A stretch of 64,000 bases of DNA. Source: a virus. Lineage: Duplodnaviria > Caudoviricetes. The translations under genes were made by a program, and so were the position numbers. The stretch's first letter is position 1; the number at the start of each line of letters is the position of its first letter. A model generated the notes under the pieces. It was not told the DNA's origin. It ran no database searches and saw nothing but the letters and a program-made list of their open reading frames with translations. Location of the stretch: the IMG/VR virus record IMGVR_UViG_3300033121_000493, positions 128,001 to 192,000 of that record; one strand, written 5' to 3'. Below, piece after piece: positions 769-55,480 of this stretch.

Positions 769-3700
769 CTAGCAAGACGACTGTCCACAACTGTAGCACT
801 TTTTACAACCCTCTGCTATCACTAGCGTGCCGCGACAATTAGGCGACGGACACGGCGTAGATAGCATGTCTACGGCGTTGATCTTTCTTGAAAGATCTTT
901 AACTACACTAGTAGGCGCTGTACTACTCGGCGACGAACAATTGTTGCCGTCACTAGCGGATAGACCTAATCCACTCCACGGCATACACGTAATAAGTCCA
1001 TCTGAATTGCGACAATCTATTGTCGCCGCGTAGTAGGCTAGTAAGCCAGCAGCTATTTCATTAGGAAGACTAGTAGTAAGCCCATTAACGTTATGCTTCT
1101 CGCCTAAAGACTTACCACCGCTCAACTGATCAATTATCACTTCTAGTCCTGCGCCAGTCTGAAGCAACTTGCTACACAAACGAGCAACGGCGTCTAGCAT
1201 GGCGTTCAACGGATCGCCACTGCGCCCAATCTCAAAGAATACCTGGCACTCTCGCCAAGTACCGTCTGGCAAGCTTTCAAACGAAACGTTGATATGCATA
1301 GTACCGTAAGTACACTTATGCTTGTAGTACAAACCAGGCATAAGCGTCGGCATGGTAGATAGCTTTTTATTAGTAATAGGTGGTACCTCTTCTTTATCCT
1401 TTGCCGCTTGCTTGAGCGCCATAGGCTGCCCGGCCCTACAATTATCGCGGTACACCGTCACGCCTTTGCACCGCAAATTGTAAGCAGTGATATAAGCGGT
1501 ACGTACATCATCAAGTGACGCCGACTCGGGTAGATTGATCGTCTTAGAAATAGCACTAGTCACATGCTCCTGGAAAGCAGCCTGCATCTTAATATGATCT
1601 TCAGGAGATATATCTCTAGCTGACCGCAGAATGTTCTTGATGTTGTCAGGAATGTCAGGACAGCCCTGTACCGTACCATTCGTAGCTACGTACTCATACA
1701 CTTCTGGCTTATCAAAACCATATAGCTTAGCGAGCGCTTTAAAGTTCTTGTTAACTTCAACCAGTTTCTTATCACCAAGAACATAACGATAGAACGCAAA
1801 ACTAAACAACGGCTCAATACCACCAGAACAATCAGCGATAATGCTGATAGTACCAGTAGGAGCAACCGTCGTGACGCACGCGTTACGAATAGGCGCACCG
1901 TTAAGGCGTTTTGGCCAAACACTCTTATCGTAGTTAGGGAACGCTCCACGCTCCTTCGCTAGATTGATACTGGCGTTAACAGCTCGGTTGTTGATAAACG
2001 ACATCAAGTTACGACCGAACTCAATACCTTCTGGCGAGTCATAACGAATGCCTAGCTGCACCAGCATGTCAGCAAAGCCCATAATACCCAAACCGATTCG
2101 TCGATTAGCGTCGTTAGCGGCGACAATTTCCTTTACAGGGTGATTGTTTACGGTAACAACATTATCTAGGAATCTAACAACCATATCGACGTCGTCACCA
2201 AGTGCGACCATGTCAACGTCGTCAAACGATCCCTGTTCGGTGATTCTATCGGTAATTGGCTTAACGTACTTAGCAAGGTTTATTGATGCTAGGTTGCAAC
2301 TTTCCCACGGGCCAAGTGGCTGCTCCCCGCAAGGATTTGTGGCCTGAATCGGCATAACATCTGGTAGCGCCTCAGTCTCTCGTACGCGAGAAATAAAGAA
2401 CAAACCAGGCTCACCAGTCTGCCACGCATTCTTAAGAATGATATCAAATATATCACCAACGCTTAAGCAATCGCTGATATCTGTAGTTGTGTCAGGCACT
2501 AAGTCGCTAAGCTGATAGCAAGTATCAAGCGTGCGTGGATGCACCTTACCGGAGATACCATCCGCTACCGCAGTCTTACATTTATCAACAATAGCACGAG
2601 GAATATACCAATTCTTATCCTTCCAGCTAACAACGTGTAGAGCAGCAGGATTTTCTTTCAACTGCTCCATAAAGCTATCTGGAACTTTGACTGAGATATT
2701 GTAATTCTCAAATTGCTTGAGGTCTTGCTTAGCAAATAGGAACTTAACTATATCTGGGTGGTGGACCGACATGACAGCCATGTTGGCTCCACGTCTAAAG
2801 CTTCCTTGCTGAATAGCACTGGTTGCCTCGCTGAACACACGCCAAAAAGACAATGGACCACTGGACTTTCCACCAGAGCTAGCCACGTATTGTCCGCATG
2901 GGCGTAGCTCGTCAAATGCGTAACCTGTGTTATGTACAATAGCCGGTAGGCCGCCACAGACAACAACATAACGAGAAAACTCACTAACAGTCAGATCATA
3001 CAAATCTGTGGCTACATCAGACGTCACCTCTTTGACAGATATAGCGTTAGCCAAATGCGATATAGCACTATCGTCAAGATTATCAGCAATGCTACTAAGA
3101 TTACGCCGTGAAGTAGACTTAGTCTGCGAATATACTAATGACTGTACATCAGGACCGCTACCCAAAGTTCCTCGGGTATCGCTACGCGTACTATCAAATT
3201 TTCCACTAGCCAAAATCTTATCGCGTACCCAGTCAGGCGTCTGGACCACACGGCTATCTGGAGACGCTAACCAATTTACTAGTCTATCTTTACGAAATTT
3301 CCTGTTTAACAAAGCTGGCAGCCAGGGTACATCGTGTGCCGCAAACGTAACTTCATAGCAATTACGTGTACCACGTTTACCCGGCAAACGCTCGCGCAGA
3401 CGTGTAGGACAGCCAAGAACACCAAGAACACCTTGTACACGCTCACACAGCTCGCGATGGACGGACGAAATAGAAACTCTCGGTCTGCTAGCTTCAACAT
3501 GTCCATCACTGTCTATTAGACCAGCGATGTAACTAGCCGCCTCATGTAACGAGGCTGGATTAAAACCAGGTATATCATTCTTAGCGCCAACACCAATCCA
3601 CTGTTTAGCTTCGGCTATTAGACTTTTATCTAATACCGTTAATTCATACACAGTTGCACCCGAAGCGTGAACAGAATATGGCTTACCACACAAATTAAAC

Positions 3701-4566
3701 ACGTAATCTTTAACAACATTTAACGTTGCTTCGTCGCCAGAAAAAATGCGCAGCCTGTCTGGACGACCATTCTTACCCTCTGATACTAGACCATCGCCTA
3801 CAATCACACCTGCAAGATACGCACGCTGGTCTAATTCTATCTGATTCGTGTACGGGGTGGGCCGGACAAGCGCCGTACCAGCTCCTGTGTCTTCAGCCGG
3901 TACAAATGACGGCCCGTCTTTACCTACAACAAAACACGGATGCTCTTTACTGGCTGTTAGTGTGCCATATGAGGTAGCAATATTGCGCGTCTTTTTATCA
4001 ACAAATCGCCAAACACGCGTAACTGGTCTAAAGCAAATTTTACCGAAATTATCGGCGGTTAGAACTTCTATATCCTTAACGTCTACGAAAACGCCATCTA
4101 CGTCCGGACGCGGCAAAATAGCACAAAGATCTGCAATGCGGGTAAGACCCTTACCACGCACAAATACTTGAGCATCACCGGCCACACATCCACCGCCTGC
4201 GCGTTGGACTAGCCCTGTCGCCTTAACAGAATCAAAGATGTTGTCTATAGAATCGCCAACAGGCAACACATAACACGCGCTAAGCAGATTGTTATTTCTA
4301 CCAGCGTTCATGAGAGTAGGCGAGTTGGGCATAAATCTGCCCTCAAGCATACCATTAAGGAACCGCTGGTACCACAGCTCCTCATCAGCGTCATTCTGTT
4401 CGGCTGACGCTACGTAGCGCGCTACGCGCGAGAAAAGCCCAAACGGCTCTTCTGTTAAAACGCCATCTTTTCTATTAAGATACCTGTCTTTAAGAACAAC
4501 CAACGCATTTTCTGTCAGCATAGGGACAGCAGGATCTACCACTACCTCAGTAGCAACTTGAGACAT
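769..4566 (-). CDS. nrdJ: class II (adenosylcobalamin-dependent) ribonucleotide reductase, intein-containing, with C-terminal TSCPD-like/zinc-ribbon extension
   Basis: FMPNSPTLMNAG, LSACYV, RRGANM, TGEPG, TNPCGEQPL, CNLASINL, RRIGLGIMG, APTGTIS, ISKTINLP, KGVTVYRD and terminal EGCKKCYSCGQSSC; GGAG RBS upstream; no small-subunit gene nearby. Confidence 0.95.
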   Translation of the reverse strand: MSQVATEVVVDPAVPMLTENALVVLKDRYLNRKDGVLTEEPFGLFSRVARYVASAEQNDADEELWYQRFLNGMLEGRFMPNSPTLMNAGRNNNLLSACYVLPVGDSIDNIFDSVKATGLVQRAGGGCVAGDAQVFVRGKGLTRIADLCAILPRPDVDGVFVDVKDIEVLTADNFGKICFRPVTRVWRFVDKKTRNIATSYGTLTASKEHPCFVVGKDGPSFVPAEDTGAGTALVRPTPYTNQIELDQRAYLAGVIVGDGLVSEGKNGRPDRLRIFSGDEATLNVVKDYVFNLCGKPYSVHASGATVYELTVLDKSLIAEAKQWIGVGAKNDIPGFNPASLHEAASYIAGLIDSDGHVEASRPRVSISSVHRELCERVQGVLGVLGCPTRLRERLPGKRGTRNCYEVTFAAHDVPWLPALLNRKFRKDRLVNWLASPDSRVVQTPDWVRDKILASGKFDSTRSDTRGTLGSGPDVQSLVYSQTKSTSRRNLSSIADNLDDSAISHLANAISVKEVTSDVATDLYDLTVSEFSRYVVVCGGLPAIVHNTGYAFDELRPCGQYVASSGGKSSGPLSFWRVFSEATSAIQQGSFRRGANMAVMSVHHPDIVKFLFAKQDLKQFENYNISVKVPDSFMEQLKENPAALHVVSWKDKNWYIPRAIVDKCKTAVADGISGKVHPRTLDTCYQLSDLVPDTTTDISDCLSVGDIFDIILKNAWQTGEPGLFFISRVRETEALPDVMPIQATNPCGEQPLGPWESCNLASINLAKYVKPITDRITEQGSFDDVDMVALGDDVDMVVRFLDNVVTVNNHPVKEIVAANDANRRIGLGIMGFADMLVQLGIRYDSPEGIEFGRNLMSFINNRAVNASINLAKERGAFPNYDKSVWPKRLNGAPIRNACVTTVAPTGTISIIADCSGGIEPLFSFAFYRYVLGDKKLVEVNKNFKALAKLYGFDKPEVYEYVATNGTVQGCPDIPDNIKNILRSARDISPEDHIKMQAAFQEHVTSAISKTINLPESASLDDVRTAYITAYNLRCKGVTVYRDNCRAGQPMALKQAAKDKEEVPPITNKKLSTMPTLMPGLYYKHKCTYGTMHINVSFESLPDGTWRECQVFFEIGRSGDPLNAMLDAVARLCSKLLQTGAGLEVIIDQLSGGKSLGEKHNVNGLTTSLPNEIAAGLLAYYAATIDCRNSDGLITCMPWSGLGLSASDGNNCSSPSSTAPTSVVKDLSRKINAVDMLSTPCPSPNCRGTLVIAEGCKKCYSCGQSSC
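2929..4188 (-). mobile_element. 420-aa intein with LAGLIDADG homing endonuclease in NrdJ
   Basis: Splits the conserved GGG|TG motif: begins CVAGDAQV, block B TASKEHP, LAGLIDADG motifs YLAGVIVGDG and YIAGLIDSDG, ends YDLTV...IVHN followed by Thr(+1). Confidence 0.95.
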
Positions 4567-4586: not shown

Positions 4587-4871
4587 TTATGAATAAGTTT
4601 GTTGCGTTAAATCGCGTTTATTGATTACAGCAAAAACAGATACCGCAAACGAGTAAGTACAGTCATCGACTTGTGCCTCTGTAATAGTAGACACTGGCGA
4701 GGAAATTACGGCGTGGCTGTCAAGGGCCAGAAAATCATTAATCTGACTCGATATAGGTCTACTAACCAAAAAATTGGCAGTTTCGTTTAGCAACGAGCCT
4801 TTTACAGGCCGTGAAATGCGTTTTTCCGAAAACCGTACTACACGAATGCCACAAAGTTTCTGCTGTGTCAT
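4587..4871 (-). CDS. hypothetical protein
   Basis: 94-aa ORF with GAGG RBS between a predicted promoter and nrdJ. Confidence 0.6.
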   Translation of the reverse strand: MTQQKLCGIRVVRFSEKRISRPVKGSLLNETANFLVSRPISSQINDFLALDSHAVISSPVSTITEAQVDDCTYSFAVSVFAVINKRDLTQQTYS

Positions 4872-4900: not shown

Positions 4901-4929
4901 ATTATAGCAAAAACGACTCAAGCTACAAA
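4901..4929 (-). promoter_or_regulatory. sigma70-like promoter (extended -10) upstream of the 94-aa ORF and nrdJ
   Basis: Minus strand TGC-TATAAT at 4909-4901 with TTGTAG 16 nt upstream. Confidence 0.55.
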
Positions 4930-5198
4930 GCCACGAGATAGGTATCGTCGGCGATTGTGAACGGTCCACTTAATCCATACGTCACAAAATTGAAAAGAAA
5001 GCCACACAACTTGCACTCTATGTACTTATTCGCGTGCGCGGTACTAACAATTAATTTAGAGTTTTTACAAAACGGGCAACCGTTCGTAATAACGTCATCG
5101 ACTATAACGTATTTGTTTATGTCTGGTAGGTATATGCATAGAGACAGGTCTTTAAGCATAGCTGCTTCTTTTCTAATGGACATATCGCTGTCTCGCAT
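4923..5198 (-). CDS. small zinc-ribbon protein, array member
   Basis: CPFC...CKLCGF; C-terminus DDTYLVAL. Confidence 0.7.
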   Translation of the reverse strand: MRDSDMSIRKEAAMLKDLSLCIYLPDINKYVIVDDVITNGCPFCKNSKLIVSTAHANKYIECKLCGFLFNFVTYGLSGPFTIADDTYLVAL

Positions 5199-5517
5199 AT
5201 CTGGAACATAAAGCGTACGTTAAAATATTGTTCGGTAACGTGAAAGTGAATAACAAAAAATCAGCGGGATACATATCCTTGGCGGTTACCAACACTACAG
5301 AAAAACCACAGGTAGAACATTCAAAATCAACGAATTCCCTAACGCGTATGAGGTCACAGTTAATGTCTAGTGTCCATGACTTACTCTTTTTAAGCGATAT
5401 ACTACCGCGGCATAGCCAACATTCCGTAGCTAGACACAGATCTTCGATTTTGATAGCTAGCTGGATAGAGGCTTCATCTATGGTTAGTATGTTGTTTACA
5501 ACACGACACGTTGCCAC
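5173..5517 (-). CDS. small zinc-ribbon protein, array member
   Basis: CWLC...CSTCGF; tail ILTYAL. Confidence 0.7.
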   Translation of the reverse strand: MATCRVVNNILTIDEASIQLAIKIEDLCLATECWLCRGSISLKKSKSWTLDINCDLIRVREFVDFECSTCGFSVVLVTAKDMYPADFLLFTFTLPNNILTYALCSRYARQRYVH

Positions 5518-5528
5518 TACGGATTGAC

Positions 5529-5891
5529 CTACTCAGCTGAGCAACCGAGAAGATATGGTAAAGTGGTATCGTATATTGATACGATTGCAATATCACGATG
5601 ACCGTAACTGTAACCGTAACTATTGTAGTACATTATAAATACATCAAAATTACACACCGTACAAACAGACTGCCTAGTGGCAGAATATACGAATATCTCC
5701 GTACGCCCACCACATAACGCACATGTCGGGTATTCGTCGTTAATATACGCACGCTTAAATTTATACACACTATCCGAGTACGTAAAGTAGAATGAATCTT
5801 CATCAACCACAAGTCGCCATGTTTTTGAATCAGCAAACCAACCAGGCTCAGAAATATATTTAGCTACTAGTTGCTTCGCTTCAGGTGACAC
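5529..5891 (-). CDS. small zinc-ribbon protein, TLPYLL family
   Basis: FYFTY..VYKF, CALC...CTVCNF, YDTTLPYLLG. Confidence 0.8.
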   Translation of the reverse strand: MSPEAKQLVAKYISEPGWFADSKTWRLVVDEDSFYFTYSDSVYKFKRAYINDEYPTCALCGGRTEIFVYSATRQSVCTVCNFDVFIMYYNSYGYSYGHRDIAIVSIYDTTLPYLLGCSAE

Positions 5892-6255
5892 GTGCTATAG
5901 ACTCGTAGGCTAGGAGGTATGGTAAAGTGGTATCGTATAGATCGACGAATAAAATGGCGCTATAGGTAAAGCCACTACAGACAGTACTTCTTTCGCGCCT
6001 ATGTGCTTTAATTACGCTGAAATCACATATATCACAAAGATAGTGAACGCTATTAGGGTACTCTAATGTCGTAACTAGCCCGCCGCAAAGTAGACAGTTT
6101 TGACCCTGCAAGCGGCTAAATTTGTACGTATTACCTAAATACTTAAACCAAAACGATTCCTCGTCAGTATTAAGACAATATGTACTTCCATCTCCAAAAA
6201 TAGGATTAGAGGCATATCTAACTACCAGGCGTGAGCTAGTCGACACGTGTGACAT
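5881..6255 (-). CDS. small zinc-ribbon protein, TLPYLL family
   Basis: FWFKYLGNTYKF, CLLC...CDICDF, YDTTLPYLLAYE. Confidence 0.8.
   Translation of the reverse strand: MSHVSTSSRLVVRYASNPIFGDGSTYCLNTDEESFWFKYLGNTYKFSRLQGQNCLLCGGLVTTLEYPNSVHYLCDICDFSVIKAHRRERSTVCSGFTYSAILFVDLYDTTLPYLLAYESIARVT
5902..5939. repeat. 38-bp exact direct repeat, copy 1 (copy 2 at 6603-6640)
   Basis: CTCGTAGGCTAGGAGGTATGGTAAAGTGGTATCGTATA identical at both sites; encodes YDTTLPYLLAYE. Confidence 0.95.
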
Positions 6256-6592
6256 TCTTACACGCTAATAAATACGGTAAAGTTCCTGCAGCAAGCCACA
6301 TTATCTCCATACACCGTATATCTCCTGGGCTCCTGCCGCTCCAGCCAAAATAACAACATTGACACTCCTCATAGTAATAATCAGCTGCTATGTGGCCCAT
6401 CATTGTTTCTAGCCGCGCGTCGCCTCTACATACCGGGCAAGTGGGCCAACCAGAAAATTTGAATTTATATCGATATTCGCCATATATAAACGAAAACTCA
6501 TTGTAGTCTTTATCTAGACGGCTAAGTAAAGAAGTATTCGTAGAGTCATTGTTTACCGAATAAACTGCAATAGTCTCGCTATCCGGTAACAT
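6236..6592 (-). CDS. small zinc-ribbon protein, TLPYLL family
   Basis: FSFIYGEYRYKF, CPVC...CQCCYF, GTLPYLLAC. Confidence 0.8.
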   Translation of the reverse strand: MLPDSETIAVYSVNNDSTNTSLLSRLDKDYNEFSFIYGEYRYKFKFSGWPTCPVCRGDARLETMMGHIAADYYYEECQCCYFGWSGRSPGDIRCMEIMWLAAGTLPYLLACKNVTRVD

Positions 6593-6929
6593 TCGCTGTA
6601 GGCTCGTAGGCTAGGAGGTATGGTAAAGTGGTATCGTATATCTGTACACCAGTAACTTCAAAAACTGGATTAGCATAAGTACCGGCTAGCATCGAAATCC
6701 GGACTACGTACTCAAAGTTACAACAGCTGCATGCTACTACAGCATACAGGGTCGTAGGGTTAAAGCGTAGCTTAGTACCACATAACTGACATTTTTCAAA
6801 TTCTTTAATACGGAACGTATATGCATTTCCTAAGTATTTAAACCAGAATACTTCATGGTTGTCCGTTACTAAACCAGTTGCACCGTTAAATAGTACAAAA
6901 GCACTTGTATAGCTAGCTACTAGTTGCAA
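6579..6929 (-). CDS. small zinc-ribbon protein, TLPYLL family
   Basis: FWFKYLGNAYTF, CQLC...CSCCNF, YDTTLPYLLAYE. Confidence 0.8.
   Translation of the reverse strand: MQLVASYTSAFVLFNGATGLVTDNHEVFWFKYLGNAYTFRIKEFEKCQLCGTKLRFNPTTLYAVVACSCCNFEYVVRISMLAGTYANPVFEVTGVQIYDTTLPYLLAYEPTANVTG
6603..6640. repeat. 38-bp exact direct repeat, copy 2
   Basis: Identical to 5902-5939. Confidence 0.95.
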
Positions 6930-7314
6930 TGTCCGCAGGCTCGTGCGCTAGAAGATATGGTAAAGTTGATGTCCGTATACACGCTGTTTTTATCTGGTAT
7001 GGCTGTGACCTAGTCGGTGTCGTAAACGCGGTATAGCCTGAAAAGCTAAAACCACAACACGTACAAAAATTATGGTCTACATATTGAAGGTCGCTAACAC
7101 CTGTGTGATCGAGTACACCATTACACACCGGACAGCAGTCAGTAGGCGGTTTAAACTTATAGCCGTATACCATGTAGTAGAACCAAAAACAGCCGTTATC
7201 CGCAATAAAAAGTTTCCCCCAGCCCGGATACGGCAAACACTTATCAGTATGCGGGATATCGCGCAGGGTAGCATACTGCGCAACAATAGCAGAAGAAGAT
7301 AAGCAGTCGTTCAC
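6913..7314 (-). CDS. small zinc-ribbon protein, TLPYLL family
   Basis: FWFYYMVYGYKF, CPVC...CTCCGF, STLPYLLAHE. Confidence 0.8.
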   Translation of the reverse strand: MNDCLSSSAIVAQYATLRDIPHTDKCLPYPGWGKLFIADNGCFWFYYMVYGYKFKPPTDCCPVCNGVLDHTGVSDLQYVDHNFCTCCGFSFSGYTAFTTPTRSQPYQIKTACIRTSTLPYLLAHEPADIATSS

Positions 7315-7637
7315 GGTGTGCTCTCAAGACCAAGAAGATACGGAAGAGCTTCAGGAGCTAGTATCAACGTCAATAAATAGGTTTCCTTTATAGCCCAGTA
7401 AGCAGTTTTACATACTGTACACCTCACAGAAAACTCACCTGTGAATATTGGACTAATTTGGCTTAATGTATCACCTTTACATATAGGACAGTGATTACGT
7501 GGTAAAAAATTCTTGTTAATAGTGTATTTACGCTGAGCGTACATAAACGATATAGTATCGTCGGTTTGTGCTAAAATTTTAGATTCAAGACTACTAGTAA
7601 AAGCCGCATACCTAACTAGTTCGTCGTAGCGTTGCAT
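7311..7637 (-). CDS. small zinc-ribbon protein, TLPYLL family
   Basis: ISFMYAQRKY, CPIC...CTVC, ALPYLLGLE. Confidence 0.75.
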   Translation of the reverse strand: MQRYDELVRYAAFTSSLESKILAQTDDTISFMYAQRKYTINKNFLPRNHCPICKGDTLSQISPIFTGEFSVRCTVCKTAYWAIKETYLLTLILAPEALPYLLGLESTP

Positions 7638-7651
7638 TTTTGATTAGCGCA

Positions 7652-7972
7652 CTATAGTGTCATCACATACAGTCTAAACGCGAGCTCGTTATGTAACTTG
7701 ACTGTAAACTTAGGTACATTATTTAGATTATACCCTAATACCGCTATGCCACACGTTGAGCACGCCGCCTCGAAGGTATCAAGAGTATCAAGAACAAAAT
7801 AGCTTACTGGTGTACCGCACATCGCGCATCGGTGATAAAATAACTCTGAACACACATCAAATTTTTTCAATATCTTTTTACCAAAGCGTATAGTCACATG
7901 GGCTATGTGCGGATCATTTTTGTCTACGTGTATATTTGCTACAAGATCAGCTGTTAGTAACTTTTTTATCAT
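7652..7972 (-). CDS. small zinc-ribbon protein, array member
   Basis: CAMC...CSTCG; divergent tail. Confidence 0.7.
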   Translation of the reverse strand: MIKKLLTADLVANIHVDKNDPHIAHVTIRFGKKILKKFDVCSELFYHRCAMCGTPVSYFVLDTLDTFEAACSTCGIAVLGYNLNNVPKFTVKLHNELAFRLYVMTL

Positions 7973-7977
7973 ATAGA

Positions 7978-8367
7978 CTACTGTTTACCGGCAAACCCGA
8001 GCAAGTACGTGAGGCTGTCAATTGTCAGCTTCTCCAGAGAGAACACACCATCTACTATAGTAGCGTAATAGTATAGATGACATTGATTACACGTACCAAA
8101 AACAATCGGCGCAGGCTTATCCGCAAACGGGCCAAGCGTAATTCTAGCCACACCTACGACGAACGCCGCGCCTTCTGTATCGCCGACTCCGACTTTGTAC
8201 ATATCTTTTAGCGGTAGAGTAGCTGAGATATACCGGTCTGACTGACAAATAGGACAACGCCCAGTAAACTCGGTGAACGCTGAAATAGGTAGTTTACCTA
8301 CTTCTACACCGTCAGCCAGCAGAGTTACGGAGCATGCCTCTAAGTCTACGGCATACGCTATCGTCAT
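7978..8367 (-). CDS. small zinc-ribbon protein, array member
   Basis: CPIC...CNQC; tail DSLTYLLG. Confidence 0.7.
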   Translation of the reverse strand: MTIAYAVDLEACSVTLLADGVEVGKLPISAFTEFTGRCPICQSDRYISATLPLKDMYKVGVGDTEGAAFVVGVARITLGPFADKPAPIVFGTCNQCHLYYYATIVDGVFSLEKLTIDSLTYLLGFAGKQ

Positions 8368-8713
8368 TATTCGTACACTCTTCGTTTGCGTTTTTTGCTG
8401 CTATAAATATATACGTTAAATCTTCTATCATACACTTTTCTACACTTATAAACTGCGTTGCATTAATCTTACCTGTTAGTAATAAGCCACAATTCCTACA
8501 TGAAAAAGTAACATGATGCCCATTATGACGACGAAATGCTTTTTTCTCCCACACGCAATCCAAGCTAGTGCATACAAAGCACTTAGGAGAAGCGCGGTGG
8601 CGGTAACGCTGCGGTGTCCAGCTTTCTGGCGGTAACGGCAGTTCAACAAAGTATACCTGGTCGTATACTAAAAATGACCTTGTTCCAACAAGCGCCCACG
8701 AAAGAGTCGTCAT
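8312..8713 (-). CDS. small zinc-ribbon protein, array member
   Basis: CFVC...CRNCG; EDLTYIF; start moved to ATG 8713, directly after the thyX stop. Confidence 0.7.
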   Translation of the reverse strand: MTTLSWALVGTRSFLVYDQVYFVELPLPPESWTPQRYRHRASPKCFVCTSLDCVWEKKAFRRHNGHHVTFSCRNCGLLLTGKINATQFISVEKCMIEDLTYIFIAAKNANEECTNNDDSVCRRLRGMLRNSAG

Positions 8714-8714
8714 A

Positions 8715-9539
8715 TTATACCTTATAGTATGTCGGCACCCAGAAACCGTCAACTTCTTTAAAGTCCCCCATCAGTGACGGCAACCTGCCTGAAATAAGTT
8801 TTAACATACACCCAACAATACATGCGATTTCCTCTTCAGCGTGTGGCGATGAACGCATAGTTATAACGTGCCGAATGGCTCGAATATTGAATGACCACAT
8901 TCCGCCAGTGCATATTCCCATAGGAAGAATCCGGCGAAGCATGGACGTTACAGTCTTTTTATACTTGAAATCCTTATCAGGTTCGTCAAGACCCCACAGT
9001 TTAACTAGCTCAGTATATGTTTCTTCAGTCTTAGCAAGTAACTTACTGCACTCATCTAGGGTAGCCTTTTTCTTCTTGGCCTCTTCCTCAGTGTCATTAG
9101 GGTTTTCACGGAGTGACGGCGGCACCCAAAAAGGAATTTCAGTAAATCGAACATAGCGTAACGACTGCTCACTGATAGCGACACCGGCTCTATGCCGATT
9201 CAGTTCTGCTGTAGCTACACGAGTAAGATTTTCAATACCAAAGTTAAACATAGCATGCTCAAAAACAGAGCCGTGTCCTTGCTTCAGAACATTACCTAGG
9301 TGGTCAGCAAGACTTTCTCTTACCTTAGTAACGTTTGGATTCGCGCCGGGTTTAAAGCTGTTGTAACACCGTTTAGCGGCAAGCGACACCAGCATTTCAC
9401 CCTGGTTAGGCATAGTATCAATGTCAGGCGGCAACTTATAGTCACTGCAACCGTTAATGCCGCGAATCCAATCTTCGGCAGCCGTAGTATCGATAGTTGG
9501 AAATCCGATCAAACTAACTTTGATTTCTTTAAACTGCAT
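8715..9539 (-). CDS. thyX: flavin-dependent thymidylate synthase
   Basis: GHGSVFEH, ThyX motif RHRAGVAISEQSLRY, RRILP, NIRAIRH..MR, HAEEEI. Confidence 0.95.
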   Translation of the reverse strand: MQFKEIKVSLIGFPTIDTTAAEDWIRGINGCSDYKLPPDIDTMPNQGEMLVSLAAKRCYNSFKPGANPNVTKVRESLADHLGNVLKQGHGSVFEHAMFNFGIENLTRVATAELNRHRAGVAISEQSLRYVRFTEIPFWVPPSLRENPNDTEEEAKKKKATLDECSKLLAKTEETYTELVKLWGLDEPDKDFKYKKTVTSMLRRILPMGICTGGMWSFNIRAIRHVITMRSSPHAEEEIACIVGCMLKLISGRLPSLMGDFKEVDGFWVPTYYKV

Positions 9540-9566: not shown

Positions 9567-10337
9567 CTACACGCGATACACTTTGTAAGTTTCTTGTATT
9601 CCGCCAACCCTGTTAATGATATTAGCCATAAACGGGTGTACAGACTTGTTTTCTTGTGCTAATTGCAAATGACGTAAAAAAATCGCTGGTGATCTTGGCT
9701 GTTCTTTACTTACGAAATGCTTATTGCGTAAGTCATCGGTATGACTATTGTGACTAGTCAACTTTGCGGCGTAGCTATCAATACTACCACCGGCTAATTG
9801 CGCACGAACTATTATATCCGTGTCCTCATACCCCCAAGCAGTATCAAAGGACTCGTCATAATGCCCAATGCGTTCAAACAACCACTTACTAATAGCTAAC
9901 GTACCAGTTGAGCCGCCAGCGTCTCTACCGTGTAGTAAGAAATCGTTTACAACAATACCGCCTCGCGGCATATTGGCCAATTTTGTAGCGACAACGGTAC
10001 ACCACGATTTGTCCAACCATACGTCACAGTCGACGAACGCTATATCGCGCCCTGTAGCTAGTCTTCCGCCGATATTACGAAATCGACTAGCTCGGTAACA
10101 CATATCGTTAACGAGCTCAACAATCGTGACGTCTTTACCTGTAGCGTGCAGTATCTTAGATTGGGCTACATCGTTGTGGCCAATAACAAAAATATACTCA
10201 ATGTTAGGATACGATTGATCGAAGAAATATGGTAAAGCAAGTTTAAGAAATTCCCAGCGATCATAGCAAACAGATACTATACTAAGTTTCCTTAGTTGGT
10301 TTAGATTTAGCTTGTTTTGCAGCTTGTCGCCTACCAC
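9567..10337 (-). CDS. GT-A glycosyltransferase (GT2/GT7-like)
   Basis: LSIVSVCYDR, RNIG, FVDCD (DxD), YDESFDTAWGYEDTD (WGxED motif). Confidence 0.85.
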   Translation of the reverse strand: MVGDKLQNKLNLNQLRKLSIVSVCYDRWEFLKLALPYFFDQSYPNIEYIFVIGHNDVAQSKILHATGKDVTIVELVNDMCYRASRFRNIGGRLATGRDIAFVDCDVWLDKSWCTVVATKLANMPRGGIVVNDFLLHGRDAGGSTGTLAISKWLFERIGHYDESFDTAWGYEDTDIIVRAQLAGGSIDSYAAKLTSHNSHTDDLRNKHFVSKEQPRSPAIFLRHLQLAQENKSVHPFMANIINRVGGIQETYKVYRV

Positions 10338-10902
10338 GCTCTTCTTCTCGTTTTATGAAGTAATCGTACGCCGCGTCCTCATCTTTACTTGTGTATACGC
10401 CACCTTTAATCAAAAACTCAGAAAACACTACAGCAAAACGCACGGCAGTATAGTCACGCCACGAAGATTCAAGTATCTCAGCGTACAGCTTATTGTAGCG
10501 GTCCGCCACTGCCGGATCTGTGCCATTTTGCGCGAGCAGTATAGCATGCTTAGCTGCTGTAGCTTTTGCTTTATATGCCTTACCTATTAGCAACTTAATT
10601 ATGTTATACAAGTACTCTACGGGTGCGTCTCGAATATCTATAAACTTACCGTCTGCAGTTCGCCATTTGTATGCGTTGATAACTACAGCACGACCACTAT
10701 GGCCGATACTGTTAAACATTTGATGGCGGTGTAGCCAAGTTTTGGGCGTACCACACGTAGGACAAATCCGGCCTGGTCCACCTTCGTACACACCGGCTTT
10801 TTTGCACAAAGGGCACGGACGTACACTATCTGACTTCATACGTATAAGCATTTTCGTCTGCACGCGGTAACCCGCCTTTTCCTGTTTCGCCTGGCAGTTC
10901 AA
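10282..10902 (-). CDS. hypothetical zinc-ribbon protein
   Basis: CPLC...CPTC followed by WRTADGKFIDIRD; true start uncertain. Confidence 0.6.
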   Translation of the reverse strand: MNCQAKQEKAGYRVQTKMLIRMKSDSVRPCPLCKKAGVYEGGPGRICPTCGTPKTWLHRHQMFNSIGHSGRAVVINAYKWRTADGKFIDIRDAPVEYLYNIIKLLIGKAYKAKATAAKHAILLAQNGTDPAVADRYNKLYAEILESSWRDYTAVRFAVVFSEFLIKGGVYTSKDEDAAYDYFIKREEERGRRQAAKQAKSKPTKET

Positions 10903-11719
10903 ACCCAGATGTGACTATGCACGAGTTCGAAAACTTCTTATGTGCAGTATAAGATTGAGTAATATCATGTGTTGGATACGGCTCAAGCCTGGACTCATCC
11001 GAATGTGTTAAAAATGATAACCTCGAAGAATCGTAGTACTTAACAACTTCTCCGCAATCATCAGCTGCTAACCGTAATCTAGTAGTATAGTCTTCAAACT
11101 CATAGCCCCATCCAACAGGAGTTTCCATCATCAATTCGTTAAACCCGTTTACGCGGGTATGCAACCATCGCTTTACGACTACTAGCTTACCGGCTTCAGC
11201 GTTATGCGGTACGTTGTGTAAAAACACGTCATTAATATAAGCAGCCCACGAGAAGTTGTGGAGGTTTAAATCAGACAAAAAGTTATCGGCTGGCAAAATA
11301 TCAGCTGTTGTAAAAACAATGATCTCGCTGGTGGTGGCGCGAGCTCCGATATTAAACGCATTAGCTATATTCCAATTAGGTGTATTAATGAATACGTTAC
11401 GCGTTGTTTTGTCATTAAAAATGATAGAATCAGTCGAATAACTGGCCACAACGATCTCTAACTTGCCGTCGTATGTGCAACGTTGCCAGGCTGTAAGTGC
11501 TTCTCTGAGGTGATCAGATCTAGAATAGAACGGAATAACAACTGAAATGCTAGGTTTATTTTTAGGAGAACTGCTAATATCTAGGGGTACTTTACGTACC
11601 GACGCCGAAATCTGGCTCGTCGTCCTCATCATCGGGGGTCTTAAAGGGCTCATCAGTTTCTTGCTTCCCAGCTTCGGCCTCAGCCTCGGCAGCGTTAACT
11701 TGACGCGCAAACTCTTCAA
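10826..11719 (-). CDS. GT-A glycosyltransferase (GT2/GT7-like)
   Basis: ISVVIPFY, AFNIGA, FTTADI, GFNELM..VGWGYEFED; N-terminal about 40 aa overlap the upstream ORF and may not be translated. Confidence 0.75.
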   Translation of the reverse strand: MKSLRVKLTLPRLRPKLGSKKLMSPLRPPMMRTTSQISASVRKVPLDISSSPKNKPSISVVIPFYSRSDHLREALTAWQRCTYDGKLEIVVASYSTDSIIFNDKTTRNVFINTPNWNIANAFNIGARATTSEIIVFTTADILPADNFLSDLNLHNFSWAAYINDVFLHNVPHNAEAGKLVVVKRWLHTRVNGFNELMMETPVGWGYEFEDYTTRLRLAADDCGEVVKYYDSSRLSFLTHSDESRLEPYPTHDITQSYTAHKKFSNSCIVTSGFELPGETGKGGLPRADENAYTYEVR

Positions 11720-11870
11720 AAAAGAGATTCACCAAAGTAGTGCTTTGGCTTAAACTAAACGCCGGTAAAGACGCAGCCTCATCGTCTGTGATAAACCCTT
11801 CGTCGGCTTCATCAAGTGGAAACTCGTGTTCCATTTTCCTGTTCCTTGTTGTGTTTCTTGATTTTGTCAC
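11592..11870 (-). CDS. small acidic protein
   Basis: D/E-rich (DEADEGFITDDE...DDEDDEPDF); likely start at MEHEF. Confidence 0.55.
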   Translation of the reverse strand: MTKSRNTTRNRKMEHEFPLDEADEGFITDDEAASLPAFSLSQSTTLVNLFFEEFARQVNAAEAEAEAGKQETDEPFKTPDDEDDEPDFGVGT

Positions 11871-12453
11871 GGATACGATTGCATATTAGTTGCGTTAACA
11901 AACAGTGAACAGACTCAACACAATACGAGGATACTGGATCAGTATCACCTATGGCTTGAACGCGCATAGCTGTATGTGCAAACTTAGCTATTGGTGTACC
12001 AGGATATGACGTTGATACTATAACAGATATACCGGAGGCATGAGCTACACTAGCGGCCTCTATGATATCGTCAGAAGAAGGATCATAGGCAAAAGCCCAA
12101 AAACAATCACCGACTGACGCTTGTCTAGATATATCCATTGCTGGTATTCCATGTTTCTTAATTCGCCTGTTGGCTGGATTAAAAAAGTCTGTACCTACCA
12201 GTGAAGCACGCAGCCAGCTCTGCTTAATTTTATTGTTAGGCTCGTATTTAGTTAATAGCCTAGCTGCTTCTGCTGCCATCAAATATCCTGAATCCGATCC
12301 GTATAGCCATAATGTTCTATTAGCTGTGTAAGTTTTAAACAATAGTGCACATGTGGTGTCAACTGCTTTAATTAGCATATCGTCGTTTAATTGCTGAAAA
12401 ACAGTTTCACACGTTACACGTGCCGCTCTGAGATCAATAAGATTAGCTGCCAC
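11812..12453 (-). CDS. SIS-domain, phosphoheptose isomerase (GmhA)-like protein, apparently degenerate
   Basis: Layout matches GmhA (TLWLYG, VGDCFWAF, IIEAA..A...GISVI, ESVHCLLTQLIC), but GNGGS is GSDSG and STSGNS is absent. Confidence 0.65.
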   Translation of the reverse strand: MAANLIDLRAARVTCETVFQQLNDDMLIKAVDTTCALLFKTYTANRTLWLYGSDSGYLMAAEAARLLTKYEPNNKIKQSWLRASLVGTDFFNPANRRIKKHGIPAMDISRQASVGDCFWAFAYDPSSDDIIEAASVAHASGISVIVSTSYPGTPIAKFAHTAMRVQAIGDTDPVSSYCVESVHCLLTQLICNRIRDKIKKHNKEQENGTRVST

Positions 12454-12460
12454 AAAAGCC

Positions 12461-12922
12461 TCAAATATGAAAGGTACGTTTATTTACAACTACATTAGCT
12501 TTATCACCCAGCACAGCGAGCGCTACAATAGTTGGCAACCATGAAATATCGCCAAATGCGTGCTGTAGATAGTCTTTTGCTTGTTTGATAGTACAAGCGT
12601 TAGCCATTAAGTCAAATTGTATTTTCGATAAGCTAAATCTTGTTACCGATATAAATGTCAGTATTCTGGTTAGACTAATCTCACAATGCTCATTGAGGAC
12701 TTCTGCGCCATAAATGTTATCGTCATTTTTAGCAGATGACTCTGTCGCATCGTTCACCAAGAGCATCGCTTTGTCTTGCAGCAATTTATTCAGTTGCTGT
12801 AACAGTAGCACAAAATCTAAAACGGGACCGTCTTCTGGGTAGTCTACAATAGTATTATAAGCGCCAAACGCGGGCTGTAGCGCAACAGTGGCAATAGAGG
12901 CGCTTACTACTGGTCTATCCAT
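12461..12922 (-). CDS. hypothetical protein
   Basis: 153-aa ORF coupled to the tmk stop. Confidence 0.6.
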   Translation of the reverse strand: MDRPVVSASIATVALQPAFGAYNTIVDYPEDGPVLDFVLLLQQLNKLLQDKAMLLVNDATESSAKNDDNIYGAEVLNEHCEISLTRILTFISVTRFSLSKIQFDLMANACTIKQAKDYLQHAFGDISWLPTIVALAVLGDKANVVVNKRTFHI

Positions 12923-13655
12923 TACTCACCGGCAAAAGTTTCACAAAAGATTGCTCCTGCAACAATCTGTTCAAAATAACAGTACGCACGTCCTCCACAG
13001 ATTCTAACGGACTGTACGGTACACCAATCACAGTTTTACCGCACATCTTGTACTGAGAGCCAGTAGCTAAATAGGCTACTGCGTTGTAGTCTTTTGCTCT
13101 AGCCTGGTATTCTTCAAACCCGTTAGCTTCGTATTTATCTTTTACGTTATCTTTACCAGCTGCTGCCAACGCGCGCGAATAAGCTACTTTATGATCCAGC
13201 ATTAAAATCATAGTTATGTCAGGAGGCTCTAAGCGCACAGCTGTCATCATTGAATACAACTGTCCAGCTAAATTATACTGCCCTGATGTTAACGTAGCGT
13301 CAGGCCAATTATTAAGCTTCGCTAGCGCCTGCCAGCCGTACACATAAAAGCCAACAGCAAACCTGTCTAACACAATTATGGCACCAGGATTATCAGTTTG
13401 TATTTTCTTAATCGCAGAAGCGCACTCTAGCTTAGCGGCAAGAAATAGCATCAATCTAGTAGCGGGATTTTCAAATTCAGAATAGCGGCCTAAACGTCTA
13501 AGTTCTTGCGCCGCCGTATGATTATCGTCAACGCCGGGATCGCGAAAGCTATAAACGCTATTAGGGTTACCAGTCTTTTCTTTAAGCCAGTCTACCAGAA
13601 GTTTAGCTTGCGTACTTTTGCCGGTTCCGTGTGGTCCTTCTAAGCAGATTACCAT
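12915..13655 (-). CDS. tmk: thymidylate (dTMP) kinase
   Basis: LEGPHGTGKSTQ P-loop, RDPG, LMLFLAA, VLDRF, PDITMIL, DKYE. Confidence 0.88.
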   Translation of the reverse strand: MVICLEGPHGTGKSTQAKLLVDWLKEKTGNPNSVYSFRDPGVDDNHTAAQELRRLGRYSEFENPATRLMLFLAAKLECASAIKKIQTDNPGAIIVLDRFAVGFYVYGWQALAKLNNWPDATLTSGQYNLAGQLYSMMTAVRLEPPDITMILMLDHKVAYSRALAAAGKDNVKDKYEANGFEEYQARAKDYNAVAYLATGSQYKMCGKTVIGVPYSPLESVEDVRTVILNRLLQEQSFVKLLPVSNG

Positions 13656-14161
13656 ACATCTTGCTCCATTAAATAGAACGGACTAAGCATATCAGACGAA
13701 GGAATCAAACTAGCTATCTTACTAACAATATTAGCATGCCTGGCCTGTAACGATTGTGCGCTGGTGGCCGTATTAAAAAGTTGCGGATTTGTAAGCATAT
13801 TATAGACGTATATTAAGTCATGCACAGTTAGTTTAAGCACCCTAGTTTTAGCGAGCTCGTCTACGGTGACTGGTTTAAGTCGTTCAGACAAAAAGGCGGC
13901 TTCTTTCTTTTTACGCAACAACTCGTCAGGACGTATTCTGTAGTATGAGGACGATTTTGGAAGTCCCAGGCTATTGAGTATTGTTGCCATCTCTGAGTAA
14001 GTAGCGCACTCTACATCAAAACTACCGTAGGCTACGCCCCTGAGCTCTCTTGCCCGCTTATCACCATTAATTCCACATTTAGCTTTTAGCTCGTCTACAC
14101 TATGCCAGTTACCGTCTTTCAAAATATTAAACGCGTCGAACGGTGAGGCTGTTTTACGCAT
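13649..14161 (-). CDS. putative helix-turn-helix protein
   Basis: N-terminal ILKDGNWHSVDEL...KRARELR resembles a winged HTH. Confidence 0.45.
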   Translation of the reverse strand: MRKTASPFDAFNILKDGNWHSVDELKAKCGINGDKRARELRGVAYGSFDVECATYSEMATILNSLGLPKSSSYYRIRPDELLRKKKEAAFLSERLKPVTVDELAKTRVLKLTVHDLIYVYNMLTNPQLFNTATSAQSLQARHANIVSKIASLIPSSDMLSPFYLMEQDVW

Positions 14162-15017
14162 GGCTTAGCTCAGCTACAAACTTAGTCATGGCAGCGTGAA
14201 GAATATCACGTTTGACGTACCACATAGGTGTCAAAAATTGACATGGGGTATTATGAGGATTCCAGTGTTTGGTGTACCTATCACGGATATTGTCACTTCC
14301 GCCACCCCATACTATATGTGGCGTTTTAGTATACGCCGCTAGATGCATAGGTCCAGATGACGACCCTATAACAAAACTAGCACAGTTATAAATGGCGATA
14401 AGATCATCTAGAGTAGTAGAGTTAGTGAGATTAATACCACACTCGTTATGAAATTTATCGTTTACATTACCTACAAAAATCAGCTTTTTACCATTATGAT
14501 CACACCACTCAGACACAGCGTCAATCGACAACTGAGAAGTATTCTTTTGCGGGCTTCTATGTAGCATACGCAAGTGCATAACGACAGCGTCGCCTGCTAT
14601 CTCGCTCCATTTGTCGCGATGCGCGGTGTCCGGCTTTAGCGTAATCGCCGCTTTTTCATTATTACGAAAACCAAACATACGATACGCGGCACGCGGCAAT
14701 TTAATAGTAGTAACTGTATGCCCTAACAGTTGTAAGCGTAATACTGCTTTGTCAGCGGCAGCATACAGTTCTCGAAAGTAATCGTGAGCTTCTGGTTTAT
14801 GTGTGAGAAAAGCGTTACACTCGGTAAACGCTTCAAACTTAGTAACACTAGTTATTTCAGGATTAAATATCCGGTATAAACCTTCTCTAGATACGCGTGT
14901 ACCTGCGTGTACTGCGTCAAATTCATGTGAAATAAACTCATGGTATACGCGCGGAAGCCAATTACCTAGCTCCCAGCCGAGTTCACCACAATATGGGTAT
15001 GCATATAGAATTTTCAT
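14154..15017 (-). CDS. GT9 (heptosyltransferase)-like glycosyltransferase
   Basis: GELGWE N-terminal motif; INLTNSTTLDDLIAIY..ASFVIGSSSGPMHLAAY..TPHIVW matches the GT9 signature. Confidence 0.75.
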   Translation of the reverse strand: MKILYAYPYCGELGWELGNWLPRVYHEFISHEFDAVHAGTRVSREGLYRIFNPEITSVTKFEAFTECNAFLTHKPEAHDYFRELYAAADKAVLRLQLLGHTVTTIKLPRAAYRMFGFRNNEKAAITLKPDTAHRDKWSEIAGDAVVMHLRMLHRSPQKNTSQLSIDAVSEWCDHNGKKLIFVGNVNDKFHNECGINLTNSTTLDDLIAIYNCASFVIGSSSGPMHLAAYTKTPHIVWGGGSDNIRDRYTKHWNPHNTPCQFLTPMWYVKRDILHAAMTKFVAELSHA

Positions 15018-16808: not shown

Positions 16809-16815
16809 TCTTATA

Positions 16816-18227: not shown

Positions 18228-18245
18228 GATAGCCTCAAGTTTCGA

Positions 18246-55208: not shown

Positions 55209-55406
55209 TTATTCACCTATAAAATTAGATTCTACGCCTTTTTGACTCGGAGACGGGTTGGTCCAATTTTCTTGGACCATTTCACCAGCTGGTGTGTCTG
55301 CGATAGGCTCTGAGTGGAGTTTATGTGTACCGCTTTGATAAGTGTCTGCGGATTTCTTAATGTGCCGTAATGTTTTATGTCGCTTTAAAAACCTGTCTGG
55401 TGACAT
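55209..55406 (-). CDS. small hypothetical protein
   Basis: AGGAG RBS a few nt upstream of the ATG at 55406. Confidence 0.5.
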   Translation of the reverse strand: MSPDRFLKRHKTLRHIKKSADTYQSGTHKLHSEPIADTPAGEMVQENWTNPSPSQKGVESNFIGE

Positions 55407-55480
55407 TACTATACTCCTATATTATACGTAATCGTAGCTTATTTAGTATACTCCTATGCTTCTACTTTAGCGAGTTTTAT

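What the first reader, a model, noticed from the sequence alone, without database searches (positions are those of the whole stretch)
4923..8713. Eleven-gene tandem array of hypervariable zinc-ribbon proteins with a conserved TLPYLL-type C-terminal tail
Seen: 11 consecutive, mostly overlapping 90-135 aa ORFs between thyX and nrdJ each carry CxxC-(variable)-CxxC, often followed by GF/NF. The central ones also have an aromatic FxFxY...YKF strand before the first CxxC, and most end in TLPYLL or a variant (LTYLL, LTYIF, LTYAL, DTYLV). N-termini and inter-Cys loops are very divergent while the tail is fixed. Inference: a diversified effector family with variable target-binding surfaces and a common docking or sorting helix (anti-defence arsenal, adaptors for a shared partner such as the MoxR/VWA machine, or a packaging signal). 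I do not recognise a named family.
Basis: partly seen in the sequence, partly recalled or inferred. Interest (0 to 1): 0.85.

Follow-up and report, generated by a model that had tools for sequence, protein, structure and literature searches.

The report
Phage array of orphan zinc-ribbon genes
A 203-kb uncultivated phage carries eleven back-to-back, anciently diverged copies of a small zinc-binding protein found almost nowhere else; the array is real and kept by selection, but what the proteins do is still a guess.

Summary
Eleven minus-strand genes (86-133 aa, window 4923-8713) lie between thyX and nrdJ. They share four invariant cysteines (CxxC...CxxC) and, in ten of eleven, a C-terminal hydrophobic-[T/P]-Y-hydrophobic-hydrophobic motif (LPYLL in six). 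A family profile hits only these eleven genes in the 202,582-bp phage.

Searches of 5.8 billion and 1.84 billion proteins found nothing else credible. Synteny found one more member, a single copy after thyX in a related phage (thyX 55% identical). Two other relatives have none in that slot. This is therefore a lineage-specific tandem expansion in a variable accessory slot.

Synonymous sites are saturated, yet every frame, the cysteines and the tyrosine survive, so selection is purifying. "Hypervariable" cannot be shown. One 38-nt identical tract marks gene conversion at the tail.

AlphaFold2 gives a confident all-beta zinc-ribbon domain whose tail is a short, well-placed helix directly after the last strand. 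No known fold matched (best Z 3.9).

All conserved non-cysteine residues are aromatic or aliphatic. I read the tail as scaffold, not a proven docking tag.

The best guess is diversified host-factor binders (anti-defence or takeover), at moderate-to-low confidence.

The parts
8312..8713 (-). member 1 (133 aa), thyX-proximal; CFVC...CRNC; tail DLTYIF followed by 30 more residues that overlap member 2 by 56 nt
   Evidence: (HMM E 6.8e-22)
7978..8367 (-). member 2 (129 aa); 51-residue loop between the Cys pairs; tail SLTYLL
   Evidence: (E 9.9e-12)
7652..7972 (-). member 3 (106 aa); zinc ribbon kept; ends at ...YVMTL, so it lacks the Tyr-containing tail
   Evidence: (E 3e-19)
7311..7637 (-). member 4 (108 aa); tail ALPYLL
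   Evidence: E 1.8e-26
6913..7314 (-). member 5 (133 aa); tail TLPYLL; GTG start
   Evidence: E 1.4e-35
6579..6929 (-). member 6 (116 aa); tail TLPYLL; TTG start; this is the protein that was modelled
   Evidence: pLDDT 82.4, pTM 0.74; E 4.7e-36
6236..6592 (-). member 7 (118 aa); tail TLPYLL
   Evidence: E 2.9e-35
5881..6255 (-). member 8 (124 aa); tail TLPYLL; closest paralogue of member 6 (44% identity in the pairwise alignment)
5529..5891 (-). member 9 (120 aa); tail TLPYLL; GTG start
   Evidence: E 1.1e-34
5173..5517 (-). member 10 (114 aa); 30-residue inter-Cys loop; tail ILTYAL
   Evidence: (E 2.3e-19)
4923..5183 (-). member 11 (86 aa), shortest; tail DDTYLV two residues from the end; the only member with a Pfam Lar_restr_allev match, and that is below the cut-off (20.5 bits against 28.6)
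   Evidence: (E 9.3e-12)
5881..5939 (.). 59-nt tract at the tail and junction of member 8. It is 88% identical to 6582-6640 (tail of member 6) and includes 38 identical bases (5902-5939 = 6603-6640), in genes that are otherwise 52% identical. This is a gene-conversion or unequal-crossover footprint.
   Evidence: (D1, D2)
6582..6640 (.). partner copy of the 59-nt tract, at the tail of member 6
8715..9539 (-). thyX, upstream boundary of the variable slot
   Evidence: PF02511, E 2.5e-36
4587..4871 (-). conserved 94-aa gene of unknown function (RPV.G ... Y[GS] end). It is not a family member. It is present directly upstream of nrdJ in relatives L004, L005 and L008, and marks the downstream boundary of the slot.
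769..4566 (-). nrdJ (class II ribonucleotide reductase) with a LAGLIDADG intein and a Cys-rich C-terminal end

Best explanation
SHOWN. One ancestral small gene, lying in a variable slot between thyX and a conserved 94-aa gene upstream of nrdJ, has been tandemly duplicated to eleven copies in this phage lineage. One relative has a single copy and two relatives have none. The copies diverged until synonymous sites were saturated. All of them keep an open frame, four zinc-ligand cysteines, an aromatic beta-hairpin (in the six central copies) and, in ten of eleven, a hydrophobic-[T/P]-Y-hydrophobic-hydrophobic element that starts a C-terminal helix. So all eleven are under purifying selection. The tail-coding DNA is also where paralogues still exchange sequence.

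INFERRED (structure). Each protein is a single compact all-beta zinc-ribbon domain. The cysteines, the aromatic residues and the tail helix form the invariant core. Three length-variable segments carry the differences: the N-terminal loop, the hairpin between the Cys pairs (16-51 residues) and the hairpin before the tail (17-35 residues).

INFERRED (function, my best guess). The family is an opened and diversified 'genomic accordion' of small accessory binder proteins made together with the replication and nucleotide-metabolism genes. Each copy presents different loops on one scaffold to bind different, or variant, host proteins such as defence or takeover targets. The proteins do not act as enzymes. 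They do not dock to a common hub through the tail.
For: Family and expansion: the HMM hits exactly eleven places in the 202,582-bp genome and nothing else in the window. Searches of 5.8e9 proteins and an exhaustive hmmsearch of 1.84e9 representatives return only the phage's own copies plus marginal generic ribbons. Synteny gives one orthologue, P0143, right after thyX in L005 (31 bits, E 1.4e-8). L004 and L008 keep the thyX...94-aa gene...nrdJ frame without a member.

Selection: pS is 0.66-0.81 in all pairs tested, with dN/dS at most 0.33-0.43 where it can be computed. All eleven frames are intact and the four Cys are invariant. The tail codons differ synonymously between members (TTA/CTT/CTC, CCA/CCG, TAT/TAC), so the constraint acts on the protein.

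Exchange: a 38-nt identical tract lies in a 52%-identical background.

Structure: the AlphaFold2 model has pLDDT 82.4 and pTM 0.74. It has eight strands plus helix 102-107, and pLDDT is 93 over residues 91-110. The 14 invariant columns of the central six are the start Met, 4 Cys and 9 aromatic or aliphatic residues.

Not enzymes: there are no conserved polar residues besides Cys, and no HNH-type His/Asn.

Precedents (literature): T4 escapes toxIN by tandem amplification of the 85-aa inhibitor gene tifA (PMC9391042). Homing-endonuclease-driven amplification of anti-defence loci is described in PMC13096335. A 52-aa zinc-ribbon phage protein inhibits AbiH and a retron (bioRxiv 10.1101/2024.06.14.598830). 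Accordion-like expansion in large phages is reviewed in PMC13359090.
Against: No target, partner or phenotype is known, and the host is unknown. No homology links the family to any proven anti-defence protein. Because synonymous sites are saturated, positive selection on the loops cannot be tested, so plain relaxed divergence on a stable scaffold fits equally well. The structural reading rests on one model built from an 11-row alignment. The outgroup modelled poorly (pLDDT 59.7). I could not inspect coordinates, so burial of the tail is inferred, not measured. The array was identical in three other assemblies, so no ongoing copy-number change is seen.
Confidence: 0.4

Rival explanations
1. The proteins are adaptors or effectors whose variable bodies recognise different targets, and whose shared C-terminal LPYLL element is a short docking, sorting or packaging motif. 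It plugs all of them into one common partner, such as a clamp-like hub, a chaperone/MoxR-type machine or the capsid.
For: The tail is the most conserved non-Cys element, and it is conserved at the protein level despite synonymous change. Its Tyr is nearly invariant, including in the outgroup. It lies near the C-terminus and is followed by a short variable, low-confidence stretch. From memory only, and untested: hydrophobic C-terminal peptides such as clamp-binding motifs look loosely similar.
Against: The motif follows the last beta-strand with no flexible linker and is modelled as a confident helix (pLDDT 93). It consists only of hydrophobic residues, like the other invariant positions. No other protein of the phage ends in it; the one other LPYLL is internal and expected by chance. 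Member 3 lacks it. In the outgroup it is the start of a long 26-residue helix. No partner was identified.
Confidence: 0.12
2. The proteins are small nucleic-acid-binding zinc-ribbon regulators. Each paralogue recognises a different DNA or RNA site or polymerase surface and tunes phage middle-gene expression or replication.
For: Zinc ribbons are common in transcription and translation factors, and the weak sequence matches are to such ribbons (TFIIB, TFIIE, L37Ae, S27e, UvrA). The array lies in the replication and nucleotide-metabolism gene block.
Against: Predicted pI runs from 4.75 to 8.86. Eight of eleven are neutral to acidic, and no conserved basic patch exists. All matches are below the family cut-offs. 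A core regulator would not be absent from close relatives.
Confidence: 0.15
3. The proteins are diverged members of the Lar restriction-alleviation zinc-ribbon family and act against type I restriction. This is a special case of anti-defence.
For: Member 11 matches Pfam Lar_restr_allev at E 5.8e-4 and PHROG 599 at E 0.013. The marginal hits of the exhaustive search look like Lar-type ribbons. The same phage has two bona fide Lar-domain genes elsewhere.
Against: The member 11 score is 20.5 bits against a cut-off of 28.6. The other ten members and the outgroup have no Lar hit. The Lar model does not find the array in a genome search. The match covers only about 27 residues around the two knuckles, which any CxxC...CxxC ribbon can give. 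The flanking strands and the tail have no Lar counterpart.
Confidence: 0.08
4. The array is evolutionary debris: neutral duplicates left by recombination near the intein-bearing nrdJ, with little or no present function.
For: The family is absent or single in relatives. Divergence is extreme, at 9-39% identity.
Against: Synonymous sites are saturated, yet all eleven frames stay open. All 44 Cys ligands are kept, and the hairpin and tail are kept with synonymous variation. Gene packing is tight, with overlapping stops and starts.
Confidence: 0.05

Closest known systems
Segmental ('accordion') amplification of small anti-defence genes in T-even phages: T4 tifA against toxIN (PMC9391042) and SegB-driven amplification in T6 (PMC13096335)
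   Same: Both involve tandem head-to-tail copies of a gene of about 100 aa or less, in an accessory region of a large lytic phage. Copies arise by recombination at short homologies. Here a 38-nt identical junction tract lies in the array, and a homing-endonuclease-bearing intein lies in nrdJ about 1 kb from the array's end.
   Different: Those amplifications are recent, identical repeats selected for dosage in the laboratory. Here the copies are ancient (synonymous sites saturated, 9-39% identity) and individually maintained, which is diversification rather than dosage. No defence target is known, and there is no sequence similarity to TifA.
Lar restriction-alleviation zinc ribbon (Pfam PF14354, PHROG 599)
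   Same: Both are small phage proteins built on a CxxC...CxxC ribbon. One member gives a sub-threshold match.
   Different: Ten of eleven members and the outgroup do not match. The proteins here are about twice as long, with an N-terminal aromatic hairpin, a long post-ribbon hairpin and a Tyr-containing C-terminal helix that are absent from the Lar model.
Enki, a 52-aa zinc-ribbon anti-defence protein of an autolykivirus (bioRxiv 10.1101/2024.06.14.598830)
   Same: It is a precedent that a very small phage zinc-ribbon protein can neutralise unrelated defence systems by binding.
   Different: No homology was tested or claimed. Enki is a single-copy gene with a different size and architecture.
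Hyperplastic regions and host-takeover modules of large phages
   Same: Both are runs of co-oriented, tightly packed, fast-evolving small genes without database relatives, in slots that vary between sister phages.
   Different: Here all genes are demonstrably one family with a metal-binding scaffold and a confident predicted fold, rather than a mix of unrelated ORFans.

Membership tests
Lar_restr_allev (Pfam PF14354) | Whole-protein score at or above the Pfam gathering cut-off (28.6 bits) | tested here: not met
   Best member (4923-5198) scores 20.5 bits, E 5.8e-4. The other ten members and P0143 have no hit. A genome search with the model finds two other genes but none in the array.
Lar_restr_allev (Pfam PF14354) | Alleviation of type I restriction | not testable with these tools
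   Needs expression in a restricting host.
Generic zinc ribbon (two CxxC knuckles on beta-hairpins binding one Zn) | Four Cys ligands as CxxC...CxxC, each at a hairpin turn | tested here: met
   The four Cys columns are invariant in all 12 sequences. In the model each pair sits between strands (E35-40 / C47,C50 / E53-58 and E62-67 / C67,C70 / E73-80). Metal binding itself was not measured.
HNH / His-Me finger endonuclease | Conserved His and Asn/His catalytic residues between the Cys pairs | tested here: not met
   No invariant or nearly invariant His or Asn in the alignments. Only one weak PHROG hit, E 0.045.
Accordion-type tandem amplification of a phage accessory gene | Head-to-tail copies of one gene, with copy number differing between related genomes | tested here: met
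   Eleven copies here, one in L005, none in the same slot of L004 and L008.
Accordion-type tandem amplification of a phage accessory gene | The amplified gene counteracts a host defence | not testable with these tools
   Host unknown and no assay possible. No homology to known anti-defence proteins.
Any solved protein fold | Structural match clearly above background | tested here: inconclusive
   Foldseek against PDB and BFVD: no hit at E <= 0.001. VIA-align against 48,161 chains: best Z 3.9, none at 5 or more.

The most novel reading that the evidence does not exclude
The array is a combinatorial adaptor set. Eleven different recognition bodies all carry the same Tyr-centred C-terminal peptide, which docks them onto a single phage or host hub. 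The phage could then redirect one machine to many targets, a viral analogue of substrate-receptor families. The tail-coding DNA would double as the recombination site that lets the set expand and shuffle.
Probability: 0.1. Interest if true: 0.75.

Novelty: new variant of a known kind. Interest (0 to 1): 0.42.

Why it matters
If the binder reading is right, this is a natural record of what happens after a phage accordion opens. The copies were neither collapsed nor lost. They were individually kept for so long that silent sites are saturated, giving eleven variants of one tiny metal-stabilised scaffold. The scaffold has no relatives in about 1.8 billion protein clusters and no matching solved fold, so it could be a new compact binding platform and a source of new inhibitors of bacterial proteins. 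If it is only relaxed divergence, it is still a clean example of how jumbo phages grow by local gene-family expansion. Until the host and a target are known, it remains an ORFan family.

Tried and rejected
1. DNA search of the array against 50,697 phage records (blastn): no match.

2. IMG/VR scans. The full and six-member alignments were too variable to seed a scan. The three-member alignment and P0143 found no relatives. thyX found none in IMG/VR.

3. Searching the whole records behind L004, L005 and L008 was not possible because the records are not held.

4. ESM Atlas: best score 0.83, which is within the noise range.

5. NCBIfam: only scattered hits at E > 0.01.

6. PDB sequence profile search: only generic ribbons such as UvrA, L37Ae and TFIIE, E >= 1e-3.

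7. Phylogeny of the 12 sequences: no branch supported, so the duplication order is unresolved.

8. dN/dS: uninformative because dS is saturated.

9. Promoter and terminator scan: counts no higher than in shuffles, so no internal transcription units can be proposed.

10. Homodimer prediction of member 6: the job returned 'no answer' (score 0.01 against a mark of 0.42). It counts neither for nor against self-association.

11. Outgroup structure: low confidence (pLDDT 59.7), so fold conservation beyond the ribbon is unconfirmed.

12. Rejected idea: the conserved tail is merely the ribosome-binding site of the next gene. The LPYLL codons end 15-20 nt or more before the next start codon, and they vary synonymously. 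Only the Glu (GAG) after the motif could serve as a Shine-Dalgarno element.

13. Rejected idea: a redox helper for NrdJ or ThyX. All four Cys fit a structural zinc site, eleven copies are unexplained by it, and relatives lack the gene.

14. Literature search for TLPYLL/LPYLL: nothing relevant.


Full report
**What is there**

The window is bases 128,001-192,000 of a 202,582-bp IMG/VR virus record that CheckV rates complete. Between thyX (8715-9539, PF02511, E 2.5e-36) and an intein-bearing nrdJ (769-4566) lie eleven minus-strand ORFs of 86-133 aa, plus one unrelated 94-aa gene at 4587-4871.

An independent gene call on an identical metagenome contig gives the same eleven gene lengths. Seven of the ten junctions overlap by 4-56 nt and three have gaps of 5-14 nt.

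All eleven share four invariant cysteines arranged CxxC...CxxC. The six central genes also share an F-x-F-x-Y...Y-[KT]-[FI] hairpin before the first pair, and [TA]LPYLL near the end. Four outer genes have LTYLL, LTYIF, LTYAL or DTYLV. One gene (7652-7972) stops just before the motif. The motif is best written hydrophobic-[T/P]-Tyr-hydrophobic-hydrophobic, and the Tyr is the only nearly invariant non-Cys residue.

A shared N-terminal (L/I)VAxY strand in seven members supports the GTG and TTG starts, and therefore the overlaps.

**Is it a family, and how wide is it?**

A profile of the eleven hits exactly those eleven places in the whole phage, at E 4e-35 to 3e-12. In the window the next-best ORF scores E 0.05.

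- A search of 5.8 billion proteins returned only the phage's own copies.
- An exhaustive hmmsearch of 1.84 billion cluster representatives returned the eleven. The rest were a long Cys-rich protein matched over 20-residue stretches and generic Lar-like ribbons at E > 1e-5.
- Pfam, PHROGs and NCBIfam give nothing above threshold. The best is Lar_restr_allev for one member, at 20.5 bits against a cut-off of 28.6.
- No phage record matches the DNA.

**Relatives found through synteny**

ThyX homologues of 52-57% identity led to three contigs with the same frame: glycosyltransferases, thymidylate kinase, GT2, thyX, a small-gene slot, a conserved gene of 80-102 aa ending in YG, then nrdJ.

- In L005 the slot holds a single 110-aa gene, P0143. 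It has CPVC...CSQCGF and a DFTYLL tail. It scores 31 bits (E 1.4e-8) against the family HMM built without it.
- L004 has no gene in the slot. L008 has an unrelated 72-aa gene there.
- More distant thyX contexts have no member.
- P0143 has no relatives of its own in the 5.8-billion-protein set or in IMG/VR.

The family is therefore known from two phages: once in one, eleven times in the other. The slot is a variable accessory position.

**Evolution**

Pairwise identity is 9-39% in the 12-sequence alignment, and the closest pair (members 6 and 8) reaches 44% when aligned on its own. No tree branch is supported.

In every pair tested the proportion of synonymous differences is 0.66-0.81, which is saturation. 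Where dN/dS can be computed it is 0.33-0.43, and that is an upper bound. The copies are old and under purifying selection. Whether the loops evolve adaptively cannot be tested with these sequences, so 'hypervariable' is a description, not a result.

The tail codons use different synonymous codons in different members, so the constraint acts on the protein. On top of that, members 6 and 8 share a 59-nt tract at 88% identity, including 38 identical bases. Members 9 and 5 carry related versions. The background identity between members 6 and 8 is 52%. It points to gene conversion or unequal crossing-over at the tail and junction, which is the sort of short homology that expands and contracts tandem arrays.

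The array was identical in three further assemblies, apart from one mismatch. No current copy-number variation is seen.

**Structure**

AlphaFold2, using the 11-row alignment, gives member 6 a confident model with mean pLDDT 82.4 and pTM 0.74.

- The order of elements is: an N-terminal strand, a low-confidence loop (residues 11-17), the aromatic hairpin, the first knuckle, a hairpin, the second knuckle, a long hairpin, then a short helix at 102-107 that is the LPYLL motif.
- Block pLDDT is 93 for residues 91-110. The last residues are disordered.

No solved or predicted viral structure matches. Foldseek found nothing at E <= 0.001 in PDB or BFVD. VIA-align against 48,161 chains gave a best Z of 3.9.

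The outgroup modelled poorly overall (pLDDT 59.7). Its ribbon reached 72-83, and its tail motif begins a 26-residue C-terminal helix.

The 14 invariant columns of the six central genes are the start Met, 4 Cys and 9 aromatic or aliphatic residues. The length variation sits in the N-terminal loop, between the Cys pairs (16-51 residues) and between the ribbon and the tail (17-35 residues).

I read the cysteines, the aromatic residues and the tail helix as the core of one small domain, with the three variable segments as its surface. I could not inspect coordinates, so burial of the tail is inferred.

**Function**

Nothing measured bears on function directly. The indirect evidence is as follows.

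- No polar residue other than Cys is conserved, which argues against catalysis.
- Predicted pI ranges from 4.75 to 8.86 with no common basic patch, which argues weakly against a shared nucleic-acid-binding role.
- The motif is not used as a C-terminal tag by any other protein of the phage.
- The genes sit in a long co-directional block of replication, nucleotide-metabolism and glycosyltransferase genes, with no internal promoter or terminator signal above shuffles.
- Close relatives do without the family, so it is accessory.

The nearest documented behaviour is tandem amplification of small anti-defence genes in T-even phages: tifA (PMC9391042) and SegB-driven amplification (PMC13096335). Small zinc-ribbon defence inhibitors also exist, such as Enki (bioRxiv 10.1101/2024.06.14.598830). 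Accordion-like growth of large phage genomes is discussed in PMC13359090.

My best explanation, at about 0.4, is an old, diversified accordion of small binder proteins aimed at host factors. The rivals are:

- nucleic-acid-binding regulators (0.15);
- diverged Lar proteins (0.08);
- neutral debris (0.05).

A homodimer prediction gave no verdict and is not used as evidence.

**Verdict**

The protein family and its predicted fold have no known counterpart. I rate it a new variant of a known kind, of moderate interest. Interest would rise sharply if a common partner or a set of defence targets were found.

Noticed in passing
window 4587-4871 (-); L004:10930-11172, L005:11301-11609, L008:2043-2327: A gene of 80-102 aa of unknown function lies immediately upstream of nrdJ in this phage and three relatives. 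It has a conserved R-P-V-x-G motif near the N-terminus and ends in Y-G or Y-S. It has no Pfam family. Its fixed position next to the class II reductase suggests a functional tie to nrdJ.
   Followed up: partly
window 769-4566 (-): NrdJ here (1265 aa) carries a LAGLIDADG/Hom_end intein (about residues 343-410 by Pfam). The nrdJ of L005 is of similar length (product of at least 1277 aa, running to the end of its contig, not scanned). L004 has an intein-free 873-aa nrdJ and L008 a 1034-aa one. The protein also ends in a Cys-rich CxxxxC...CxxCxxC tail after the TSCPD domain.
   Followed up: partly
window 9567-20753 (-); L004:1-10004, L005:1-9781: The glycosyltransferase-rich block (GT2, GT9, GT4-like) interleaved with thymidylate kinase and ending at thyX is syntenic in the two closest relatives, so it is a conserved module of this phage group. 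L004 adds DegT/FdtA/epimerase sugar-nucleotide genes.
   Followed up: no
window 10282-10902 (-): A 206-aa protein with an N-terminal CPLC...CPTC zinc ribbon and no Pfam family, next to the GT2 genes. It is unrelated to the array by HMM.
   Followed up: no
genome G000:C1:2809-2961 (-) and 199981-200142 (-), outside the window: Two genes of this phage contain bona fide Lar_restr_allev domains above the Pfam cut-off (35.4 and 30.4 bits). This shows that the Lar model works in this genome and still does not pick up the array.
   Followed up: partly
genome G000:C1:125677-126222 (-), about 2 kb before the window: The only other LPYLL in the six-frame ORFs of the phage lies inside a 182-aa ORF, 70 residues from its end. 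One such occurrence is about what chance gives.
   Followed up: yes
window 55370-57490 (+): The large terminase is only 27% identical to its best match among 50,697 phage records (Salmonella phage Arash; next are Vibrio phages of about 187 kb). The phage therefore belongs to a lineage without close cultured relatives.
   Followed up: no
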